NCBI GenBank assembly: GCA_964444545.1
Contig: CAYUHG010000004.1
Span: forward strand, 4,021-68,020
DNA: 64,000 nt
DNA from: an uncultured Rhizobium sp.
GTDB taxonomy: Bacteria > Pseudomonadota > Alphaproteobacteria > Rickettsiales > UBA1997
Direction: 5' to 3'
Shown here: piece after piece, positions 168 to 57,173 of the stretch
Layout: every line of letters starts with the position of its first letter
Numbering within the stretch: the first letter of the stretch is position 1
Notes under the pieces: model-generated
Seen by the model: the letters and a program-made list of their open reading frames with translations, nothing else
What the model was told of the DNA's origin: nothing
Database searches by the model: none
Made by a program: the position numbers and the translations under genes

Positions 168-272
168 GAAACCCCGACTCGCTGCGCGAGCCACCCCCCT
201 TAACAGGGGGGCGATGGTTCGAGTCCTGCCCCCCTGTTAAGGGGGGTGGCCCCGCAAGGGGTCGGGGGGTTC
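168..272. repeat. Family A GC-rich nested palindromic element, copy 1 (left arm divergent)
   Basis: The sequence is gaaaccccgac..ccaccccccttaacagggggg..cccccctgttaaggggggtggccccgcaaggggtcggggggtt. It shares arms with the copies at 2961, 22283 and 32222. Confidence 0.9.
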
Positions 273-297
273 CTCGTCCAAAAATAATTCCTAAAAA

Positions 298-2934
298 ATG
301 TCTGACAAAAAAACCTTACAACAATACGACGCTAAAACACGCGAAAAATTCTGGCAAAACCATTGGAAAGAGCAGGGCGTTTTCACTTTTAAAAACGACA
401 AATCCAAAGCTGAAACTTTCGTAATCGATACTCCTCCGCCAACAGTTTCTGGCCTTTTGCACATGGGTCACGTTTTCTCTTACACTCAAGCAGATTTTGT
501 GGCGCGTTTCCAAAGAATGTCGGGCAAAGATGTTTTTTATCCGATGGGTTTTGATGATAACGGACTTCCAACCGAGCGTTTAGTTGAAAAAATTATCGGC
601 AAAAAAGCTGGAGTTTATGAAGCTGAAAATGGTCACGGATCTTTCGTAAAAAAATGTCGTGAAGAAGTTGAGGCAGCAGAATTAGAATTTGAAGCTTTGT
701 TCAACTCAATCGCGCTTTCAGTTGATTGGAACGAGAAATATCAAACGATCTCGCCAGAATCGCAAAAAATTTCGCAAGCCAGTTTTGTTGATTTGTGGAA
801 CAAAAAATTAGTTGAGAAAAAATTCGAACCAGTTTTTTGGGATATTTCTGACCGCACGGCTCTAGCACAGGCTGACTTGATCGACAAAGAAGTTGAAGGC
901 CAAATGAATTACATTTTCTTCGTAATCGAAGGTTCTGACGAAAAACTCGAAATCATGACTACGCGTCCCGAGCTGCTTCCAGCCTGCGTTGCGGTTATGG
1001 TTCACCCTGAAGATGAACGCTACAAACATCTTCACGGCAAAAATGCCATCACGCCACTTTTCGGCGTAAAAGTTAAAATTATCGCTGACGATTTAGTGCA
1101 ACTCGACAAAGGAACTGGCGCGGTAATGTGCTGTACTTTCGGTGATGAAACCGACATCCGTTGGTGGAAAAAACACAATCTTGAACTCAAAGTTATCGTT
1201 GGCAAAGACGGTAAAATAAATTTCGATCACGAATTAGTTGCTGGCAAAAACATCAAACAAGCTAAAGATGCCATTATCGAAGCCTTAAAAAATACTCCTT
1301 GCAAGATGGGGTCTGTGACCCCGTCTTCAGGTTCAGTTCAAGGACATGAAAGTGAGGACGGAGTTACAAACTCCGTCCTGCGTAAACAGGAAAAGATTAT
1401 TCGCGCGGTAAAATGTGCCGAGCGTTCGGGCGTGCCGATCGAGATTCTTGTGGTGCCTCAATGGTTCATCAAAGTTTTGGATAAAAAAGAATTGCTGAAG
1501 AGCAAAGCTGCTGAGTGCAATTGGTATCCTGATTACATGAAAGTGCGCATCGACCAATGGATTGATGGACTGCAATGGGATTGGTGTATTTCGCGCCAAC
1601 GTTTTTTTGGCGTAAAATTTCCGGTGTGGTATTCAAAAAGAGCGGGCGAAGAAGGTAAAATTTTAGTTGCAACCGCTGACCAACTTCCGTGCGATCCGAC
1701 AGTTGATTTACCGAAAGGTTACACTCGCGAAGAAGTGACTGCCGAAACCGACATCATGGATACTTGGGCGACTTCTTCAATTTCTCCGCAGCTTTCAAGC
1801 AAAGGAATTTCAAACGAAATTTCTTTCGATCGTGCGCGTCACGAAAAATTATTCCCAGCCGATTTGCGTCCACAAGCTCACGAAATTATTCGTACTTGGG
1901 CTTTCTACACCATTGTGAAAGCCGCACTTCATCAAAATTCAATTCCGTGGAAAAATTTGATGATCTCGGGTTGGTGCTTGGCAGCGGATAAAACCAAAAT
2001 GAGTAAATCGAAAGGCAACGTGGTTACTCCAACTTCTTTGATTGAAGAAAAAGGTTCAGACATTGTGCGTTACTGGGCGTCAACTTCGCATTTGGGAGCT
2101 GACACAGCTTACTCGGAAGAAGTGTTTAAAATTGGGCATAAATTGGTTACAAAACTCTTCAACGCGGCGAAATTTGCTTCGATGAATTTTGGTCTTTTGG
2201 ATAATTGTCATGTTGAGCGCAGCGAAACATCTCAGGAGTCTAAAGAGATCCTTCGCGATGCTCAGGATGACAAAATAAGTGCTCAGAATGACAAAATAAC
2301 CGAAAGCTCAGATCTGTGGATTCTTTCGCGTCTGCATCAAACTGTTGCCAAAGCAACTTCTGAGTTTGAACAATTCGAATATGCGCGCGCGCGTGAAGCG
2401 ATTGAACAATTTTTCTGGCACGATTTTTGCGACAATTATTTAGAAATTTGCAAAGTGCGTTCTTACGGACTTGCAGCGGAAAGGCTTGCGGGCGTTGAAT
2501 TGAGCGACTCTCAGAAAAAAGAAATCGAAGCACAACAACAAAGCGCGATTGTGACCTTACGTATTTGTTTGAATACACTTCTTAAACTATTCGCACCTTT
2601 CATTCCGCACATTTGTGACGAAATTTATTCCGTAATTTTTGAGGAAGAATTTGCTCAAACTAAGTCGATTAACGCGCGCGGAAATTGGCCGAAATTGTCA
2701 GAAAAATTCTTCAATCAAAAACATTTGGAAATTGGTGAAGCTGCGCTAGCCGTGATTTTCGAAGTGCGTAAGTTTAAATCGGAAAAAAATATTTCGATGA
2801 AAACTACTGTCGCGAAATTGGTGGTTAATTGCGAAAAAGATTTGTCGGAAATTGCTGGGGATTTGAAAAATGTTTGTAATGCGCAGGAGTTGGAGTTTGT
2901 GAAATCTGGTGCTTTGGTGGAAGTGATTCTTTAG
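298..2934 (+). CDS. valS: Valyl-tRNA synthetase, rickettsial/archaeal-like type
   Basis: 878-aa ORF with a class I HIGH-type motif (LHMGHVFSY) and KMSKS. The blocks DTPPPTVSG.LH.GHV.SYTQ.DF..RFQRM.GK..FYPMGFDDNGLPTE and CAERSG.P.EIL match my recollection of Rickettsia ValRS. Confidence 0.93.
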   Translation: MSDKKTLQQYDAKTREKFWQNHWKEQGVFTFKNDKSKAETFVIDTPPPTVSGLLHMGHVFSYTQADFVARFQRMSGKDVFYPMGFDDNGLPTERLVEKIIGKKAGVYEAENGHGSFVKKCREEVEAAELEFEALFNSIALSVDWNEKYQTISPESQKISQASFVDLWNKKLVEKKFEPVFWDISDRTALAQADLIDKEVEGQMNYIFFVIEGSDEKLEIMTTRPELLPACVAVMVHPEDERYKHLHGKNAITPLFGVKVKIIADDLVQLDKGTGAVMCCTFGDETDIRWWKKHNLELKVIVGKDGKINFDHELVAGKNIKQAKDAIIEALKNTPCKMGSVTPSSGSVQGHESEDGVTNSVLRKQEKIIRAVKCAERSGVPIEILVVPQWFIKVLDKKELLKSKAAECNWYPDYMKVRIDQWIDGLQWDWCISRQRFFGVKFPVWYSKRAGEEGKILVATADQLPCDPTVDLPKGYTREEVTAETDIMDTWATSSISPQLSSKGISNEISFDRARHEKLFPADLRPQAHEIIRTWAFYTIVKAALHQNSIPWKNLMISGWCLAADKTKMSKSKGNVVTPTSLIEEKGSDIVRYWASTSHLGADTAYSEEVFKIGHKLVTKLFNAAKFASMNFGLLDNCHVERSETSQESKEILRDAQDDKISAQNDKITESSDLWILSRLHQTVAKATSEFEQFEYARAREAIEQFFWHDFCDNYLEICKVRSYGLAAERLAGVELSDSQKKEIEAQQQSAIVTLRICLNTLLKLFAPFIPHICDEIYSVIFEEEFAQTKSINARGNWPKLSEKFFNQKHLEIGEAALAVIFEVRKFKSEKNISMKTTVAKLVVNCEKDLSEIAGDLKNVCNAQELEFVKSGALVEVIL
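1305..1378. repeat. Family C palindromic element inserted in frame inside valS
   Basis: gatggggtctgtgaccccgtc...ggacggagttacaaactccgtcc is an inverted version of the intergenic elements at 4957 and 9778. It encodes the extra peptide ~CKMGSVTPSSGSVQGHESEDGVTNSVL. Confidence 0.75.
2206..2298. repeat. Family B palindromic element, with a duplicated 3' tail, inserted in frame inside valS
   Basis: The sequence is tgtcatgttgagcgcagcgaaacatctc...gagatccttcgcgatgctcaggatgaca plus the tail aaataagtgctcagaatgacaaaata. The same architecture occurs at 6404-6513. It encodes ~HVERSETSQESKEILRDAQDDKISAQNDKI. Confidence 0.8.
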
Positions 2935-2960: not shown

Positions 2961-3064
2961 AAACCCCCCGACCCCTGACGGGGCCACCCCCCTTAACAGG
3001 GGGGCGATGGTCTGAGTCCCGCCCCCCTGTCAAGGGGGGTGGCCCCGCAGGGGTCGGGGGGTTT
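2961..3064. repeat. Family A GC-rich nested palindromic element, copy 2
   Basis: The sequence is aaaccccccgacccctgacggggccaccccccttaacagggggg-loop-cccccctgtcaaggggggtggccccgcaggggtcggggggttt. It lies between the convergent valS and hxlR-like genes. Confidence 0.92.
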
Positions 3065-4332: not shown

Positions 4333-4911
4333 ATGACAAAATTAAAACTATTTTCTGCAGCAGTTTTTGCTCTTACTTTTGCTAGCCAAACTTCTTTTGC
4401 TGCAGGTGAAAAATATCAAATCGAAAAAAATCACTCGCACGTAAATTGGACGGCAAATCATTTCGGATTTTCAAATCAAACCGGAAAATTTTCTGACATT
4501 TCTGGTGAAATTGTTTTTGACGAAAAAAAACCGCAAGATTCTTCAGTTGATGTAACCATCAAAATCGCGAGCTTAACTACTGGTTTATCTGGTTTTGATG
4601 CTCACTTGAAAAGCGAAGAACTTTTGGACGAGAAAAAATTTCCAACAGCAAAATTCGTTAGCAAAAAAATTAAAGTTACTGGCAAAAATACTGCTAAAAT
4701 TGAAGGTGAGTTGACTTTGCACGGCGTGACTAAACCAGTTACTTTGAATGCAAAATTCAACAAATCTGACGTAAGTGTGATTACACAAAAACCGACAGTT
4801 GGTTTCTCTGCAACTGCATCAATCAAACGTTCAGAATTTGGAGTTAATTACGCAGTTCCAGCTGTTTCAGATAAAATTGATTTAGTGATTGAAGTTGAAG
4901 CAAATAAATAA
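4333..4911 (+). CDS. YceI-family periplasmic polyisoprenoid-binding protein
   Basis: Signal peptide ending SFA-AGE. It also has the YceI pattern Y.I...HS.V.W...H.GFS...G.F....G.I.FD and LTLHGVTKPVTL. Confidence 0.8.
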   Translation: MTKLKLFSAAVFALTFASQTSFAAGEKYQIEKNHSHVNWTANHFGFSNQTGKFSDISGEIVFDEKKPQDSSVDVTIKIASLTTGLSGFDAHLKSEELLDEKKFPTAKFVSKKIKVTGKNTAKIEGELTLHGVTKPVTLNAKFNKSDVSVITQKPTVGFSATASIKRSEFGVNYAVPAVSDKIDLVIEVEANK

Positions 4912-4956
4912 TAGTTAATTGTTTAAGTTATCGCGAGTGACTGCAAAGTAACTCGA

Positions 4957-5047
4957 GGCTGGTCGGGGTTTGTAACCCCGATCGAAACTGTTCATATTAA
5001 AGCTTTAAGAATGAACGTGTGGACGGGGTTAAAAACCCCATCCAGCC
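4957..5047. repeat. Family C palindromic element
   Basis: ggctggtcggggtttgtaaccccgatc...gtggacggggttaaaaaccccatccagcc has terminal inverted repeats, each folding into a small hairpin. It lies upstream of the CIO-type cydA. Confidence 0.8.
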
Positions 5048-5067
5048 ATTTTATTTTGTGAATTATT

Positions 5068-6384
5068 ATGTTCTTCGATCCTCTGCTTTTAGCGCGTATT
5101 CAGTTCGCGTTTACGATTAGTTTTCACATCATTTTTCCCACTTTCACCATTGGTCTGGCAGGATATCTAACCTGCGTTGAAGCACTTTATCTCAAAACCA
5201 AAGACAAAACCTACAAAGAAATCTACAAATTCTGGGTTAAAATTTTCGCGATTATTTTCGGCATGGGCGTGGTTTCTGGAGTGGTGTTATCCTACGAAAT
5301 CGGCACTAATTGGTCGGGATTTTCACAACGTTTAGGCAATGTTTTAGGGCCATTGTTGGGCATGGAAGTGTTGACTGCCTTCTTTCTCGAAGCTTCTTTT
5401 TTAGGAATCATGCTTTTTGGTTGGAATCGTGTTTCGCCAAAAATTCATTTCTTCTCAACCTTGATGGTGGCGATTGGCACTTTGATGTCAGCATTCTGGG
5501 TAATATCTGCTAATAGCTGGATGCAAACTCCGTCTAATTTTTTGTCTTATAACATCACTTTTTATTCTACCGATTGGTTTAAAACGATTTTTAATCCGTC
5601 ATTTCTTTATCGCTTATCCCACATGGTGGTGGCGTCTTATTTGACTTGTGCTTTCGTGGTTTGCGGAGTTTCAGCATGGTTTTTGTCGAAGAAGAAAAAT
5701 ACCGAACATGCGCGTGTAATGTTCAAAATGGCGCTGGCTTTCATTGTGATTTTTATTCCGCTGCAAATTTTTATCGGTGATCTTCACGGTTTAAATACTC
5801 TCAAATATCAGCCGATGAAAGTGGCGGCGATGGAAGGAATTTGGGAAGATGAAGTTGGTGCACCGCTTACACTTTTCGGTATTCCTGATCAAGAAAGCGA
5901 AAGCACAAAATACGCCATTAAAATTCCGAAGTTGGCGAGTTTGATTTTAAAACACGATGCCAACGCAAAAATTTACGGTTTGAAATCAGCGCCGAAAGAA
6001 GATCGCCCGCCAGTTGCGCCAGTTTTCTTCAGCTTCCGCGTGATGGTGGCAATCGGCATGTTGATGTTAGCAACTGCTGTGATTGCTGTTTTTTTGATGT
6101 TTCGTAAAAAACTTTTTACCACCAAATGGTTTCAAAAATGGTGTATGTTGATGACGCCGAGTGGATTTATCGCGGTGCTTGCCGGTTGGTTTGTCACTGA
6201 AATTGGTCGTCAACCTTACGTGGTTTACGGTTTTGTGCGCACGGCTGATGTGGTTTCAAAAGGAATTGTCGCAGAAAAAATATTATTCTCGCTGACAGCT
6301 TTTGCTGTGACTTATTTCATAATTTTCGGCGCCGCAACTTACTACATTTTGCGTTTGATTGCGAAGGGTGTGCAGAAGTTGTAG
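5068..6384 (+). CDS. cydA: Cytochrome bd-type quinol oxidase subunit I, short Q-loop (CIO-like)
   Basis: 438-aa polytopic membrane protein. It has the conserved N-terminus ARIQFAFTISFHIIFPTFTIGLA and the motifs GWFVTEIGRQPYVV and MAAMEG.WE. Confidence 0.88.
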   Translation: MFFDPLLLARIQFAFTISFHIIFPTFTIGLAGYLTCVEALYLKTKDKTYKEIYKFWVKIFAIIFGMGVVSGVVLSYEIGTNWSGFSQRLGNVLGPLLGMEVLTAFFLEASFLGIMLFGWNRVSPKIHFFSTLMVAIGTLMSAFWVISANSWMQTPSNFLSYNITFYSTDWFKTIFNPSFLYRLSHMVVASYLTCAFVVCGVSAWFLSKKKNTEHARVMFKMALAFIVIFIPLQIFIGDLHGLNTLKYQPMKVAAMEGIWEDEVGAPLTLFGIPDQESESTKYAIKIPKLASLILKHDANAKIYGLKSAPKEDRPPVAPVFFSFRVMVAIGMLMLATAVIAVFLMFRKKLFTTKWFQKWCMLMTPSGFIAVLAGWFVTEIGRQPYVVYGFVRTADVVSKGIVAEKILFSLTAFAVTYFIIFGAATYYILRLIAKGVQKL

Positions 6385-6403
6385 TAACAAAATTGTCATC
6401 CTG

Positions 6404-6513
6404 AGCGTAGCGAAGGATCTCGTGAGCCGAGAGGAATTTCACGTAAAATCACTCTCGACTTACGAGATCCTTCGCTGCGCTCAGGATGACAAAAATAAAG
6501 TTCAGGATGACAA
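6404..6513. repeat. Family B palindromic element with a duplicated tail, lying between subunit I and II genes
   Basis: tgtcatcctgagcgtagcgaaggatctcgtga-loop-tacgagatccttcgctgcgctcaggatgaca plus the tail aaaataaagttcaggatgacaa. Confidence 0.9.
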
Positions 6514-9144: not shown

Positions 9145-9732
9145 TTACAAAACACCTTTGGTTGAATTAATCGCGTCTTTTTTGCGTTCGTCAATTGTGA
9201 TGGCAACGCGAAGTGCGCGTGCCAAAGCTTTGAAGCAAGATTCGATGATGTGATGATTATTCACGCCGTAAAGATTTTCGATGTGCAGATTGCAACCAAC
9301 TGATTGAGCAAAAGCGAAGAACCATTCGCGGAAAAGTTCGCAATCCATTTCGCCAATTTTGTCGCGTTTAAATTCGCAATTGAAAAGAGGGTAGGCGCGA
9401 CCAGATAAATCAATAACGCAACGTGTCAAAGTTTCATCCATTGGCACGTAAGAATGGCCAAAACGAGTGATGCCTTTTTTGTCGCCCAAAGCTTGTTTAA
9501 CTGCTTCGCCGATGGCAAGAGCTGCATCTTCAGTTGTGTGATGGAAGTCGATGTGTAAGTCGCCTTGAACTTCTAAATTGATGTCGATCAGTGAGTGATG
9601 AGAAAGTTGCTCGATCATGTGATTCAAAAAACCGATGCCTGTGTTGACTTTGTATTGGCCGGTTCCGTCGAGGTTAATTTCAACTTTGATTTTGGTTTCT
9701 TTGGTGTTGCGTTGTATTGTTGCTGTGCGCAT
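9145..9732 (-). CDS. hisB: Imidazoleglycerol-phosphate dehydratase
   Basis: 195 aa. R.T.ET.I.V.I.LDG.G......TGI.F..HM..Q...H.......V.GDL.ID.HHT.ED is the classic IGPD pattern. Confidence 0.9.
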
Positions 9733-9777: not shown

Positions 9778-9873
9778 ATGGCTGGACGGGGTTTGTAACC
9801 ACGTCCACACGTTCATTTCAAATTTCAAACGAAACATGAATAATTAGATGGGGTTAAAAACCCCGTCCAGCCA
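9778..9873. repeat. Family C palindromic element
   Basis: tggctggacggggtttgtaaccacgtccacacgttcat...gatggggttaaaaaccccgtccagcca, between hisB and sodB. Confidence 0.85.
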
Positions 9874-9902
9874 TGAGTCAAGCCAAAGACCTATAATTTT
9901 TA

Positions 9903-10496
9903 TTACTTCAAATTTTCTGCTACGAAATCCCAGTTCACTAAGTGATTTAGGAAAGTGTCGATGTAAGTTGGACGAGCGTTTTGGAAATCTAAATAATAAG
10001 CATGTTCCCAAACGTCCATTGTCATTAAAGGTTTAGCGTTTGTAGTAAGCGGAGTTTCAGCGTTACCAGTTTTAGTAACTTTCAATTTTCCGTCTTCAAG
10101 AACTAACCAAGCCCAGCCTGAACCAAATTGAGTTGCACCAGCTTGTTTAAATTCAGCAACGAAATTTTCGTAAGAACCAAAATCAGCTTCGATTTTAGCA
10201 AGAACTGCGCCAGTAGGTTTGCCGCCGCCATTTGGTTTCATTGAATGCCAGTAGAAAGTGTGATTCCAAACTTGTGCAGCATTGTTGAAAATTCCAGCTT
10301 TAGTTTTGTCAGCAGCAGAAATTTTGATGATTTCTTCCAAAGATTTTCCAGCCAAGTCAGTGCTTGCGATCAAATTATTCAAATTAGTAACATAAGCTTG
10401 ATGATGTTTACCGTAGTGGTAGTTTAAAGTGTTCTCAGAGATGTGTGGGGTTAGAGCGTTTCTAGCGTAGGGAAGAGCTGGAAGTTCGAAAGACAT
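9903..10496 (-). CDS. sodB: Fe/Mn superoxide dismutase
   Basis: MSFELPALPYARNALTPHISENTLNYHYGKHHQAYV... and DVWEHAYYLD. The ATG at 10496 is preceded by AGGA 6 nt upstream. The longer ORF to 10721 is considered an artefact (see the rejected list). Confidence 0.9.
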   Translation of the reverse strand: MSFELPALPYARNALTPHISENTLNYHYGKHHQAYVTNLNNLIASTDLAGKSLEEIIKISAADKTKAGIFNNAAQVWNHTFYWHSMKPNGGGKPTGAVLAKIEADFGSYENFVAEFKQAGATQFGSGWAWLVLEDGKLKVTKTGNAETPLTTNAKPLMTMDVWEHAYYLDFQNARPTYIDTFLNHLVNWDFVAENLK

Positions 10497-22282: not shown

Positions 22283-22382
22283 AAAACCCCCGACCCCTGC
22301 GGGGCCACCCCCCTTGACAGGGGGGCAAGTTCGGCTAAGCCCCCCTGTCAAGGGGGGTGGCCCCGCAGGGGTCGGGGGGTTC
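22283..22382. repeat. Family A GC-rich nested palindromic element, copy 3
   Basis: aaaacccccgacccctgcggggccaccccccttgacaggggggcaagttcggctaagcccccctgtcaaggggggtggccccgcaggggtcggggggtt. Confidence 0.92.
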
Positions 22383-31418: not shown

Positions 31419-32204
31419 ATGAGAAATTTTTCCAAAATATTTTCGGCGATTTTTATTATTATCATCGCTTTTTGCGGACAAAGTTTTGCCGCCGAAAATG
31501 AAAAATGGAATAGCGAAGAAGGCTTAAAAAGATTAGAAAGAAGTCAGGCAAAAAATGATTTTTATCAGCTGGTAAATTTTTACCAACCGCAGGTCAATCC
31601 GCTTTATTGTTCGGTTGCTACTGGTGTGATTTTGTTAAATGCGACAAGTGATCGCGAAAAAATTCCTAGCCAAAAAGAAAATCAAGTAAAGCGTCCGAAA
31701 GGTGCGGGTGGTGGAATTGCTGAATTTCACTCTTATTCCCAGCAGAGTTTTTTGAATGAAAAAACTGACAATATTAAAAAGCGTCAAATCATACAACTCA
31801 AAGCTCCAGCGCGTAAAAATGGTAAAGAAATTTATGATCCAGGAATGTCTATGGGTGATTTTTCGAAAGTTTTAAATCGTGTTTATGGTTTTCGTGTTGA
31901 AGAAAATCACGTAGCAAAAAATGGTGAAAATTCGCGACAAAAATTTCGTGAAGATTTGAAAAAATATTTAGTCGATAGCGATCATTTTGTGGTAGTGAAT
32001 TTTGATGGAAAAATTGTTGGAAATGGCACGAGAGGTCACTTTTCGCCAGTTGCGGCTTATGATGAAGTCAGTGATTCAATTTTAGTTCTTGATGTCGCGC
32101 TGCACAAAACTGGTTGGTATTGGGTGGATTTATCTAAACTTTTTGAAGCGATAAACACTGAGGATGGAGATACTTATCGAGGGTATCTGGTGGTTAAAAA
32201 ATAA
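31419..32204 (+). CDS. Phytochelatin synthase-like (peptidase C83) protein with a signal peptide
   Basis: Signal peptide ...SFA-AEN. The Cys motif is QVNPLYCSVATGVILLN. The His and Asp motifs are RGHFSPVAAYDEVSDSILVLDVA. This resembles prokaryotic half-PCS proteins of the Nostoc alr0975 type. Confidence 0.72.
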   Translation: MRNFSKIFSAIFIIIIAFCGQSFAAENEKWNSEEGLKRLERSQAKNDFYQLVNFYQPQVNPLYCSVATGVILLNATSDREKIPSQKENQVKRPKGAGGGIAEFHSYSQQSFLNEKTDNIKKRQIIQLKAPARKNGKEIYDPGMSMGDFSKVLNRVYGFRVEENHVAKNGENSRQKFREDLKKYLVDSDHFVVVNFDGKIVGNGTRGHFSPVAAYDEVSDSILVLDVALHKTGWYWVDLSKLFEAINTEDGDTYRGYLVVKK

Positions 32205-32221
32205 TTTAAGTTTGGCTAAAC

Positions 32222-32320
32222 AAACCCCCCGACCCCTAGCGGGGCCACCCCCCTTGACAGGGGGGCAAGTTCGGCTAAGCCCCCCTGTCAAGGGGGGTGG
32301 CCCGCAGGGTCGGGGGGTTT
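32222..32320. repeat. Family A GC-rich nested palindromic element, copy 4
   Basis: The arms match copy 3, with two 1-nt deletions in the right arm. The flanks extend the palindrome (tttggctaaa / tttagccaaa). Confidence 0.92.
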
Positions 32321-32361
32321 CTTTAGCCAAAGCTAGATACTAATTACGTAAAAAATATTAA

Positions 32362-43858: not shown

Positions 43859-43985
43859 ATTTCGATTATGAATTTATTGAAAGGCGTGGGCAGATTGCTG
43901 TCCCGCGCTAGGACAAAATTTTCCGAAAAAAGAAGCAATAATATTTTTCAACCTAAGCTAGAATGACTCATTGTTGGAATTTTGT

Positions 43986-44072
43986 TGTCATCCTGAGCGT
44001 TAGCGAAGGATCTCTTTAGTTCGTCTTAAAATAATAAACTCACGAGATCCTTCGCTAACGCTCAGGATGACA
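43986..44072. repeat. Family B palindromic element
   Basis: tgtcatcctgagcgttagcgaaggatctc-loop-gagatccttcgctaacgctcaggatgaca, followed by a partial tail duplicate (caggataacagtaaaa). Confidence 0.9.
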
Positions 44073-44101
44073 GTAAAATCAGGATAACAGTAAAATTAAT
44101 T

Positions 44102-46008: not shown

Positions 46009-46214
46009 TAAATTTACGAGGATTCCGTTTTTATTTACTTAATAAGTCTGGAGCGCCAGCGACTTAGCAACCCAGTAATTGATTAAACGCTTATTTAGTT
46101 TTGAAAAGAATTAAAATCATATTTCTTCCAAAATTTTGTAATGGAGTTGTTGAAAACTCTAAGCTGTAGATTAGTTTTTCAAAATCTTTCCTCCCTTACA
46201 AAATCACAACAAAA

Positions 46215-57086: not shown

Positions 57087-57110
57087 AATATATTCTGATC
57101 TGTGAGTTTT
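57075..57110 (+). terminator. Rho-independent terminator of cysS
   Basis: cacagatc-14-nt loop-gatctgtg, followed by agttttt. It overlaps the cysS stop codon. Confidence 0.6.
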
Positions 57111-57113
57111 TCT

Positions 57114-57149
57114 AAATAAACCCCCCGACCCCTGGCGGGGGGTTTATTT
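57114..57149. repeat. Minimal family A-related hairpin (outer arms only)
   Basis: aaataaaccccccg-acccctgg-cggggggtttattt is a perfect 14-bp stem. It shares the aaaccccccgacccct terminus of family A. It lies between convergent cysS and the Cox11-like gene. Confidence 0.7.
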
Positions 57150-57173
57150 ATCCGACCTCACATAGAAAAGATT

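What the first reader, a model, noticed from the sequence alone, without database searches (positions are those of the whole stretch)
1305..1378. Family C palindromic element inserted in frame in valS
valS contains gatggggtctgtgaccccgtc...ggacggagttacaaactccgtcc. This is the reverse orientation of the intergenic elements at 4957-5047 and 9778-9873 (ggacggggtttgtaacc...gatggggttaaaaaccccgtcc).

It adds roughly 25 residues (..CKMGSVTPSSGSVQGHESEDGVTNSVL..) just before the conserved VKCAERSG block. As far as I recall, Rickettsia ValRS has no such segment there. The reading frame is preserved.

This mirrors the Rickettsia palindromic element (RPE) phenomenon, in which selfish repeats colonise essential genes and are tolerated as surface loops.
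Basis: partly seen in the sequence, partly recalled or inferred. Interest (0 to 1): 0.65.

Follow-up and report, generated by a model that had tools for sequence, protein, structure and literature searches.

The report
In-frame REP-type palindrome inside valS
An 86-base mobile palindromic repeat, of a family whose relatives flank a dedicated transposase gene, sits in frame in the essential valS gene of an uncultured freshwater alphaproteobacterium and adds about 25 dispensable residues, which is a new example of a phenomenon already known from Rickettsia and other bacteria.

Summary
Window 1298-1383, inside valS (298-2934, +), is a copy of the repeat also found between genes at 4956-5048 and 9779-9874. 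A profile built only from 62 foreign intergenic copies hits exactly these three places (E = 2e-15 to 3e-20).

The copy is in frame. It gives a net +25 residues (aa 332-359), which 70 of 120 close ValRS homologues lack.

The element is two 10-bp hairpins around nearly invariant TTCAT...ATGAA motifs. The hairpins covary strongly.

The new result is that this is a REP/REPIN-type family with its own transposase. In related contigs a REP-associated tyrosine transposase gene (RAYT; NCBIfam NF047646, 96 bits) lies between the two halves of the element, and hairpins flanked the gene in every RAYT locus examined.

In a metagenome sample 104 of 112 copies are not in long ORFs. The other eight lie in valS, mnmG and a FAD-oxidase gene.

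The same ValRS loop carries three other repeat families in other lineages, so it is an insertion-tolerant hot spot.

Verdict: a new member of a known kind (intragenic REPs, Rickettsia palindromic elements). Surface exposure and translation were not shown.

The parts
298..2934 (+). valS, valine--tRNA ligase, 878 aa. It is the host gene and is intact.
   Evidence: It is a single ORF with HMGH and KMSKS motifs in the translation. The homologues are all ValRS. The best PDB match is 1GAX ValRS.
1298..1383 (.). Family C palindromic element (a REPIN-like dimer of two REP hairpins), read in frame as aa 334-362. The net insertion relative to empty alleles is aa 332-359.
   Evidence: The independent profile gives E = 2e-15. 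The element aligns with the intergenic copies. The segment is absent from 70 of 120 homologues.
1305..1325 (.). Hairpin a: GATGGGGTC-tgt-GACCCCGTC, a 9-bp stem with one G-T pair.
   Evidence: Sequence; DNA fold; covariation of this helix across copies.
1332..1336 (.). TTCAG, a degenerate copy of the family's nearly invariant inner pentamer. It reads CTGAA on the other strand; the family consensus is ATGAA.
   Evidence: Alignments A5 and A7. This pair is broken in 4 of the 15 distinct coding copies.
1346..1350 (.). ATGAA, the intact inner pentamer (TTCAT on the other strand).
   Evidence: Alignments A5 and A7. The motif is invariant or nearly so in 78 distinct copies.
1356..1378 (.). Hairpin b: GGACGGAGTT-aca-AACTCCGTCC, a perfect 10-bp stem. 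Relative to the family consensus GGGG/CCCC it carries a compensatory G>A / C>T pair.
   Evidence: The A-T variant of this pair is seen in other copies as well.
4956..5048 (+). Intergenic Family C copy between the yceI-like gene (4333-4911) and cydA (5068-6384), both on the + strand.
   Evidence: E = 1e-18. Folds with z = -7.5.
9779..9874 (+). Intergenic Family C copy between the superoxide dismutase gene (9903-10496, -) and hisB (9145-9732, -).
   Evidence: E = 3e-20. Folds with z = -8.4.

Best explanation
Window 1298-1383 is a copy of a REP/REPIN-type mobile palindrome, here called Family C.

Anatomy of the element:
- two inverted 10-bp stem-loops (GGACGGGGTT-TGT-AACCCCGTCC and its mirror);
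- nearly invariant TTCAT and ATGAA motifs on the inner sides of the hairpins;
- a variable spacer between those motifs.

How it spreads. Families of this type are spread in trans by a single-copy HUH/Y1 REP-associated tyrosine transposase (RAYT), which acts on the hairpins in single-stranded DNA. In related genomes that gene sits between the two halves of a Family C element.

How it came to be in valS. One copy landed in valS, at the turn between the last helix of the well-modelled block (residues about 198-332, read here as the editing domain) and the strand that leads back to the catalytic core. For the short-spacer form only one reading frame is free of stop codons, and it is the same frame on either strand. 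Copies that survive in valS therefore encode the same ..TGFVTPS..GHE.EDGV.NPV.. peptide.

What the insert does. It is not needed for ValRS function, because most close orthologues lack it. It is tolerated as an extra stretch of about 25 residues, probably disordered. The same loop has independently accepted at least three other repeat families, so the position is an insertion-tolerant hot spot and not a functional innovation.

Shown here:
- repeat identity;
- in-frame state;
- absence from orthologues;
- covariation of the hairpins;
- RAYT association in relatives;
- predominance of intergenic copies.

Inferred:
- that the RAYT moves the element;
- that the insert is translated;
- that it lies on the protein surface.
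For: - Repeat identity.
- Insert delimited, and absent from 70 of 120 homologues at 63-85% identity.
- Hairpins across 80 copies: 95.8% of cells paired, 18 of 25 pairs changed on both sides, covariation 0.314 against 0.111 in shuffles, and at most 0.075 when the partners are slid.
- The 16 coding copies alone: 96.5% paired, covariation 0.206 against 0.086.
- RAYT in L149: a 166-aa ORF (405-902) lies exactly between hairpin1-TTCAT (338-382) and ATGAAC-hairpin2 (897-939). It matches NCBIfam NF047646 'REP-associated tyrosine transposase' at E = 1.7e-27 and 96.1 bits (cut-off 80). The best PDB hit is 4ER8, E. coli TnpArep.
- Unbiased check: three RAYT loci chosen by protein homology alone (L193, L194/195, L196/197) all have C-type hairpins on both sides of the gene.
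- Linkage: RAYT P0144 is on the same contig as the C-bearing valS of L007.
- Census: 112 copies in 72 metagenome loci, of which 8 lie in long ORFs (4 in valS, 2 in a FAD-oxidase/Fe-S gene, 2 in mnmG).
- Only one stop-free frame for the short-spacer dimer.
- The AlphaFold2 model puts the insert as coil 333-360 with pLDDT below 50, between helix 319-332 and strand 361-370.
- The same allele was assembled independently in several samples.
Against: - No RAYT gene lies in the 64-kb window, and the rest of the source genome could not be read. A cognate transposase in this organism is therefore inferred from relatives with 81% ValRS identity.
- The family lacks the GTAG tag of the classical REPs handled by E. 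coli-type RAYTs.
- Pfam did not recognise the transposase at E <= 1e-3.
- Transposition, transcription through the insert and translation were not tested, and no RNA runs were available.
- The structure model is poor overall (mean pLDDT 61.7), so surface exposure is not established.
- In the valS copy one of the two inner pentamers is degenerate (CTGAA), so this copy may no longer be mobile.
- Covariation between copies may partly reflect different source subfamilies at the time of insertion, and not compensation in place.
Confidence: 0.8

Rival explanations
1. The peptide or the mRNA hairpins have been co-opted. Either the insert now contributes to ValRS function (for example tRNA or partner binding near the hinge of the editing domain), or it acts as an RNA structure that modulates translation of valS.
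For: - Similar peptides sit at the same site in many ValRS lineages of 72-85% identity.
- The hairpins stay 96.5% paired in coding copies, with compensatory changes that cost amino-acid replacements such as P>S, D>E and V>F.
- The allele is the only one seen for this strain in several samples.
Against: - Of 120 close homologues, 70 have nothing at the site, and others carry unrelated repeats (Family B, Family A, or Family A with a DUF559 domain) at exactly the same place.
- Peptide conservation is what nucleotide-level constraint on the hairpins would produce anyway.
- The same element occurs in unrelated genes, read in other frames.
- The insert is predicted to be disordered.
Confidence: 0.1
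2. The segment is an ancestral part of this ValRS clade that most lineages lost, and the intergenic copies derive from it or resemble it by chance.
For: The insert co-occurs with a characteristic upstream flank (GKTIKQAKEAIIEALK-NT) in most carriers. That pattern could indicate vertical inheritance of one old allele.
Against: - More than 100 intergenic copies occur in many contigs, and copies flank a transposase gene.
- The same element occurs at two other ValRS positions and in mnmG and a FAD-oxidase gene.
- The insert states are scattered over the ValRS tree.
- ValRS of named Rickettsiales (about 800 aa matched) and 1GAX have no such segment.
Confidence: 0.03
3. Metagenome assembly artefact: a repeat collapsed or chimerically joined into valS.
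For: The window comes from a metagenome assembly. In run X1 the first hairpin (1301-1335) has higher word depth (25.7 against about 8), as expected for a multi-copy sequence.
Against: - The identical 878-aa protein was called on 11 contigs, from three NCBI assemblies and from Logan assemblies of six samples.
- Contigs from other studies span the insert with 0 to 2 differences.
- The frame is preserved.
- Independent MAGs have the element at the same codon position.
Confidence: 0.02
4. The element is a conventional MITE or an RPE proper. In that case it is moved by a DDE transposase or by an unknown Rickettsia-type mechanism, and the RAYT association is coincidental.
For: - In-frame palindromes are the hallmark of RPEs (PMC10969869).
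- A DDE transposase gene lies next to the RAYT in L193.
- No dedicated transposase was found for the CGTC-type REPs of alphaproteobacteria (PMC3733652).
Against: - RAYT genes are flanked by C hairpins in 4 of 4 loci. The hairpin sequences differ from locus to locus but always pair.
- In L149, and similarly in L196, the RAYT ORF sits between hairpin 1 and hairpin 2. In L149 it exactly replaces the variable spacer.
- The peptides encoded by Family C do not match the RPE-4 and RPE-6 (CGTC) peptides listed in PMC3733652.
Confidence: 0.05

Closest known systems
REPIN/REP elements with REP-associated tyrosine transposases (RAYTs). Sources: Nunvar 2010; Bertels & Rainey 2011, PMC3116915; Ton-Hoang 2012; Bertels 2017, PMC5581495.
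   Same: - Short hairpin units are arranged as inverted doublets around a spacer.
- There are many copies, mostly between genes and just downstream of genes.
- The stems covary.
- A small HUH/Tyr transposase gene is flanked by the same hairpins, and it passes the NCBIfam RAYT equivalog cut-off.
   Different: - There is no GTAG tag. The conserved unpaired motifs are TTCAT/ATGAA on the inner side of the hairpins.
- Covariation supports the two local hairpins, not the long arm-to-arm REPIN hairpin.
- This copy and a few others lie inside genes and in frame.
- The host is an uncultured freshwater alphaproteobacterium.
Rickettsia palindromic elements, RPE-1 to RPE-10 (Ogata et al. 2000; summarised in PMC10969869).
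   Same: - Palindromic repeats are inserted in frame in unrelated housekeeping genes.
- They encode a family-specific peptide.
- They are tolerated without destroying the gene.
- Several families coexist, and some genes are hit twice.
   Different: - The element is shorter (85-100 nt, against about 100-150).
- Sequence homology to RPE families was not shown, and the peptides differ from RPE-4 and RPE-6.
- The host is not Rickettsia.
- In the sample only about 7% of copies are in genes.
- A candidate transposase is identified here, whereas none was reported for RPEs in the papers read.
Intragenic GTAG/CGTC-tagged REPs (Di Nocera et al. 2013, PMC3733652).
   Same: - REP monomers and dimers encoding 20-30 residues lie inside known genes, including aminoacyl-tRNA synthetase genes (Erythrobacter IleRS and GlyRS beta).
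- Such elements are predominant in alphaproteobacteria.
- Head-to-head dimers are the usual arrangement.
   Different: - In Family C the stem is 10 bp and the loop 3 nt, against 8-9 bp and 4-5 nt.
- The CGTC string is present but paired inside the stem, not an unpaired tag.
- None of the Family C peptides is found in that paper's list.
- That paper concluded that CGTC REPs lack a dedicated transposase.
IS200/IS605 insertion sequences and their miniature derivatives.
   Same: - They have a Y1 HUH transposase.
- Subterminal hairpins are recognised in single-stranded DNA.
- Short conserved penta- or tetranucleotides lie next to the hairpins.
   Different: The protein here scores as a RAYT, not as IS200 TnpA. 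Whether the transposase gene is multicopy in a genome could not be checked. The two ends are mirror images.

Membership tests
REP/REPIN-RAYT system | A short palindromic hairpin unit repeated many times in the genome. | tested here: met
   There are 5 hairpin sites in the window against 0 expected. Three full elements lie in the window, 14 in the window plus the valS loci, and 112 in the metagenome loci.
REP/REPIN-RAYT system | Units arranged as inverted doublets separated by a spacer (REPIN). | tested here: met
   Alignment A5 of 80 copies shows hairpin - TTCAT - spacer of variable length - ATGAA - mirror hairpin.
REP/REPIN-RAYT system | The doublet forms one long hairpin, arm against arm. 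| tested here: not met
   Arm-to-arm pairing reaches only 82% and shows no more double-sided changes than shuffles (9 against 11.8). The local hairpins are supported instead. The window's intergenic copies can still fold that way.
REP/REPIN-RAYT system | A cognate RAYT gene flanked by the same REP hairpins. | tested here: met
   Seen in L149 and in three loci chosen by RAYT homology alone. This holds in relatives only; no RAYT lies in the 64-kb window.
REP/REPIN-RAYT system | The transposase is a RAYT, with an HUH motif and a catalytic Tyr. | tested here: met
   NCBIfam NF047646 at 96.1 bits, above the cut-off of 80, E = 1.7e-27. The motifs NHLHMIV and VDYIHDNPV align to E. coli TnpArep 4ER8. 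Pfam gave no hit at 1e-3.
REP/REPIN-RAYT system | A conserved GTAG tetranucleotide at the foot of the hairpin (classical REPs). | tested here: not met
   The consensus of A5 has no GTAG. The conserved unpaired motifs are TTCAT and ATGAA.
REP/REPIN-RAYT system | Copies lie predominantly between genes. | tested here: met
   104 of 112 sampled copies are not in long ORFs. The copy under study is one of the intragenic exceptions.
REP/REPIN-RAYT system | RAYT-dependent mobilisation of the element. | not testable with these tools
   This needs a biochemical or genetic assay.
Rickettsia palindromic elements (RPE) | A palindromic repeat inserted in frame in protein-coding genes, leaving the gene intact. 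| tested here: met
   Seen in valS, and also in mnmG and a FAD-oxidase gene.
Rickettsia palindromic elements (RPE) | Sequence homology to one of RPE-1 to RPE-10. | tested here: inconclusive
   No RPE consensus sequences were on hand. The Family C peptides are absent from the list of R. conorii RPE-4 and RPE-6 (CGTC) peptides in PMC3733652. The other RPE families were not tested.
Rickettsia palindromic elements (RPE) | The host belongs to the genus Rickettsia. | tested here: not met
   The source is a freshwater metagenome. The nearest genomes are uncultured lake MAGs at up to 85% ValRS identity. Named Rickettsiales reach about 50% (Aquarickettsia, Midichloriaceae).
Rickettsia palindromic elements (RPE) | The insert lies on the protein surface, away from active sites. 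| tested here: inconclusive
   The AlphaFold2 model shows a coil at 333-360 with pLDDT below 50 between helix 319-332 and strand 361-370. The model as a whole is poor (pLDDT 61.7) and no coordinates were available to measure exposure. HMMER leaves aa 312-361 unaligned to 1GAX.
CGTC-tagged REPs (Di Nocera 2013) | An unpaired CGTC tag at one end, an 8-9 bp stem, a 4-5 nt loop and a CCA tail. | tested here: inconclusive
   CGTC is present (..CCCCGTCCAGC) but pairs with GACG inside a 10-bp stem, and the loop is 3 nt. The family consensus figures of the paper could not be read.
MITE derived from a DDE-type insertion sequence | Terminal inverted repeats plus a target-site duplication. | tested here: inconclusive
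   Comparing filled and empty valS alleles showed no clear duplication. The junction is blurred by nested elements and by small deletions.

The most novel reading that the evidence does not exclude
The in-frame palindromes of Rickettsiales-like bacteria may be REPINs that a RAYT still acts on even when they lie inside genes. Three observations point that way.

- Coding copies keep their hairpins at the expense of amino-acid changes.
- One ValRS loop serves as a shared 'safe harbour' for at least four selfish families, one of which carries a DUF559 endonuclease-like domain read in frame.
- The insert and its upstream flank appear to travel together between lineages.

If this holds, it would supply a mobilisation mechanism for RPE-like protein-coding repeats. 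It would also show that a protein loop can act as a long-lived landing pad for mobile DNA.
Probability: 0.25. Interest if true: 0.7.

Novelty: new member of a known kind. Interest (0 to 1): 0.5.

Why it matters
In-frame palindromic repeats in essential genes are a classic oddity of Rickettsia, and the papers read here name no transposase that moves them. Here the same behaviour appears in a free-living-looking freshwater relative, and the repeat family can be tied to a specific transposase type (RAYT). That link suggests concrete experiments on how such repeats enter genes.

The ValRS loop that has accepted four different repeat families is also a natural map of where a class I synthetase tolerates 25-230 extra residues. 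This is useful for protein engineering and for annotation, because these inserts inflate protein lengths and can look like errors.

Tried and rejected
- **Peptide census in the protein database.** The doubled alignment found only 4 weak hits and not even the ValRS proteins, so the census was done at the DNA level instead.
- **Rfam.** No family matched the window or the insert.
- **RNA runs.** None holds valS, so transcription through the insert could not be tested.
- **Pfam on the L149 ORF.** No hit at 1e-3. NCBIfam and the PDB search settled its identity.
- **Long arm-to-arm hairpin model.** Rejected on covariation.
- **Loose loop-only pattern TTTGYAA..TTACAAA.** It gave chance hits such as window 46135-46202, which is not an element.
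- **Target-site duplication.** Not resolvable from filled against empty alleles.
- **AlphaFold2 of the whole ValRS with 74 close homologues.** The model was weak (pLDDT 61.7). I did not run a fold search on it.
- **Literature search for ValRS domain limits.** Nothing usable.
- **ValRS neighbour-joining tree.** It is star-like, so the number of independent gains cannot be read from it.
Full report
**Observation.** valS is a single ORF, 298-2934 (+), of 878 aa with intact HMGH and KMSKS motifs. The intergenic elements at 4957-5047 and 9778-9873 are as described.

The hairpin pattern, allowing 3 mismatches, hits five sites in the window against none in 100 shuffles. A stricter test used an nhmmer profile built from 62 intergenic copies taken from other contigs, with no window copy and no genic copy. 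It finds exactly three places in the window:
- 9779-9874, E = 3e-20;
- 4957-5048, E = 1e-18;
- 1298-1383, E = 2e-15.

The similarity is therefore far beyond chance, and the element spans 1298-1383. The two strands of the valS copy score 52.8 and 50.1 bits. The element is so nearly palindromic that 'reverse orientation' carries no information.

**The insertion in the protein.** The 120 best ValRS homologues (63-85% identity) range from 764 to 1059 aa. In a MAFFT alignment, residues 332-359 (NTPCKMGSVTPSSGSVQGHESEDGVTNS) fall in a block where 70 homologues have only three residues (K-EKN-LLLK or K-AQG-ILQK). The net gain is 25 residues, ending 12 residues before VKCAERSG.

HMMER leaves aa 312-361 unaligned to T. 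thermophilus ValRS 1GAX. An AlphaFold2 model is weak overall (mean pLDDT 61.7). It models residues 198-332 reasonably well (pLDDT about 66-90, apart from a dip near 281-290). It puts the insert as coil 333-360 with pLDDT below 50, between helix 319-332 and strand 361-370. My reading is that this is the turn where the editing-domain block returns to the catalytic core. That reading is an inference, and exposure was not measured.

**Source organism.** The exact protein is on contigs of several very large NCBI assemblies (millions of contigs, presumably metagenomes) and on Logan assemblies of sequencing runs. The runs that hold the stretch completely are freshwater metagenomes, and partial matches come from soil and other samples. 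The nearest species-level genomes are uncultured lake MAGs labelled Alphaproteobacteria or Rickettsiales, at 85% ValRS identity or less. Named Rickettsiales (Aquarickettsia, Midichloriaceae) reach about 50%. This is not Rickettsia.

**Anatomy of the element.** Iterated nhmmer found 14 full copies in the window plus the valS-centred loci. A pattern scan of the metagenome collection gave 109 stretches, in which nhmmer finds 112 copies in 72 loci. The alignment of 80 copies shows, in order:
- an outer GC(A/T)GG;
- a 10-bp stem with a 3-nt loop (GGACGGGGTT-TGT-AACCCCGTCC);
- a nearly invariant TTCAT;
- a spacer of variable length;
- a nearly invariant ATGAA(C);
- the mirror hairpin, then CC(A/T)GC.

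Pair counts strongly support the two local hairpins. 95.8% of cells are paired and 18 of 25 pairs change on both sides. The covariation score is 0.314 against 0.111 in shuffles (0 of 500 reach it), and at most 0.075 when the partners are slid. The alternative, one long arm-to-arm hairpin, is not supported: the long helix is 82% paired and shows 9 double-sided pairs against 11.8 in shuffles.

The 16 coding copies alone are 96.5% paired, with covariation 0.206 against 0.086. In the window copy, hairpin b carries a compensatory G>A / C>T pair. One change is silent (GGG>GGA) and the other replaces Pro with Ser. One inner pentamer is degenerate (CTGAA).

**What it is.** In metagenome locus L149 a 166-aa ORF (405-902) lies exactly between hairpin1-TTCAT (338-382) and ATGAAC-hairpin2 (897-939), with further full copies on both sides. 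The protein passes the NCBIfam equivalog model 'REP-associated tyrosine transposase' (NF047646, 96.1 bits, cut-off 80, E = 1.7e-27). Its only credible PDB match is E. coli TnpArep 4ER8, with the HUH (NHLHMIV) and Tyr (VDYIHDNPV) motifs aligned.

As an unbiased test I took homologues found by protein search and read their loci. All three (L193, L194/195, L196/197) have C-type hairpins on both sides of the gene. The stems differ from locus to locus but always pair. P0144 is on the same contig as the C-bearing valS of MAG REEB439 (L007, 81% ValRS identity to the window). P0169 is listed with the same longest-contig length (79182) as ValRS P0013, which carries a C element, so probably on the same contig.

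Family C thus meets the operational definition of a REP/REPIN family with a cognate RAYT. It lacks the GTAG tag of the classical families. No RAYT lies in the 64-kb window, and the rest of the source genome could not be read.

**Census.** In the metagenome sample 104 of 112 copies are not in long ORFs, and many are clustered. Eight lie in long ORFs with at least 40 codons on each side:
- four in valS;
- two in one FAD-oxidase/Fe-S gene;
- two in mnmG (gidA), at different positions.

In the valS-centred loci the element occurs at three ValRS positions: about aa 333, about aa 630-660 and about aa 215. For the short-spacer dimer only one frame is free of stops, and it is the same on either strand (TGFVTPS..DGVTNPV). 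This explains why all valS copies encode the same peptide. Copies with other spacer lengths in other genes use other frame combinations. The two intergenic window copies lie just downstream of yceI-like and sod genes, between genes on the same strand. That is the usual place for REPs (PMC3733652).

**Hot spot.** At the same ValRS position other homologues carry other inserts:
- Family B (..CHPERSEGS..);
- Family A (..RSNHxPLEGG...STLPQGEG..);
- a fourth family (..PSPLxGEGWGEGE..);
- Family A with a nested DUF559 (PF04480) domain read in frame;
- C nested inside A.

A related strain in the same sample has Family A at the same junction. The insert states are scattered over a star-like ValRS tree, and most carriers share a characteristic upstream flank. 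I read this as repeated gain, loss and replacement, with some cassette-like recombination, at a position where the enzyme tolerates extra residues. The number of independent events cannot be given.

**Comparison with what is known.** In-frame palindromic repeats are the hallmark of Rickettsia RPEs (review PMC10969869). Di Nocera et al. (PMC3733652) described intragenic REPs in many species, including dimers in Erythrobacter IleRS and GlyRS genes. They equated RPE-4 and RPE-6 with CGTC-tagged REPs, for which they found no dedicated transposase.

The Family C peptides are not in their list, and its hairpin geometry differs from their CGTC description. The finding is therefore a new member of a known kind. 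Its added value is the RAYT link in a Rickettsiales-like lineage and the multi-family hot spot.

**Rivals.**
- Co-option of the peptide or of the mRNA hairpins cannot be excluded (about 0.1). It is made unlikely by the many insert-free orthologues and by unrelated repeats at the same site.
- An ancestral segment lost elsewhere is contradicted by the census and by the spread of the element to other genes.
- An assembly artefact is contradicted by independent assemblies of the same allele.

**Limits.** Translation of the insert, its exposure on the protein, RAYT activity on this family and the presence of a RAYT in the source genome are all inferred, not shown.

Noticed in passing
window 2207-2296 (valS aa 632-657): A second in-frame palindromic insert lies in the same valS. 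It is a Family B element (TGTCATGTTGAGCGCAGCGAA...GAGATCCTTCGCGATGCTCAGGATGACAA) followed by a 21-nt tandem duplication. It aligns with the intergenic B copies at 6393-6492 and 43979-44079, and is shared only with P0002 among 120 homologues.
   Followed up: partly
ValRS site after ..IIEALK (window about 1290); loci L012, L023, L055, L061, L062, L064, L071; proteins P0023, P0067, P0083, P0099, P0100, P0102: The same loop carries Family A, Family B, a fourth family, or Family A with a nested DUF559/PF04480 (+PF18741) endonuclease-like domain of about 120-150 aa read in frame with ValRS, giving proteins of 1019-1059 aa. This suggests that Family A is the miniature form of an endonuclease-carrying element.
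   Followed up: partly
L062:7135-7860: Inside the Family A/DUF559 insert of this valS there is a perfect threefold tandem repeat encoding NLKFALQADASPQGEG.
   Followed up: no
window 170-280, 2961-3064, 22284-22381, 32204-32338, 57101-57162: Family A palindromes, rich in C and G runs (AAACCCCCGACCCCTGCGGGGCCACCCCCCTTGACAGGGGGGC and its mirror), flank valS on both sides and recur through the window.
   Followed up: no
run X1, loose end at window 1297: A co-occurring related strain (16 differences over 124 nt) continues with Family A sequence (GGTCTAATCACTCCCCCCTTGAGGGGG) exactly where the window continues with Family C. The site is therefore polymorphic for repeat family within one sample.
   Followed up: partly
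ValRS alignment columns 548-704 (window aa 308-314): 69 of 120 homologues carry extra residues just upstream of the hot spot, up to about 46 aa and not palindromic (for example SSCYQSFKFADDFTELEF... in L012). The window has only 7 extra residues there.
   Followed up: no
ValRS homologues, flank upstream of site 1: Filled alleles almost always have the flank GKTIKQAKEAIIEALK-NT, and empty ones GLPLKQFKEKVIEDLK. This holds regardless of position in the core tree, which hints at cassette-like recombination of this region between lineages.
   Followed up: partly
L190:244-451: A degraded RAYT remnant (two fragments, 68% and 44% identical to the L149 protein) lies next to a Family C half-copy at 527-568.
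   Followed up: no
L085, L134, L143, L144, L149: Some metagenome contigs carry arrays of 3-6 Family C copies at spacings of about 170-260 nt, so the family forms clusters as well as isolated copies.
   Followed up: no
window 1-64000: No Rfam family reaches its gathering score anywhere in the 64 kb, not even a tRNA.
   Followed up: no
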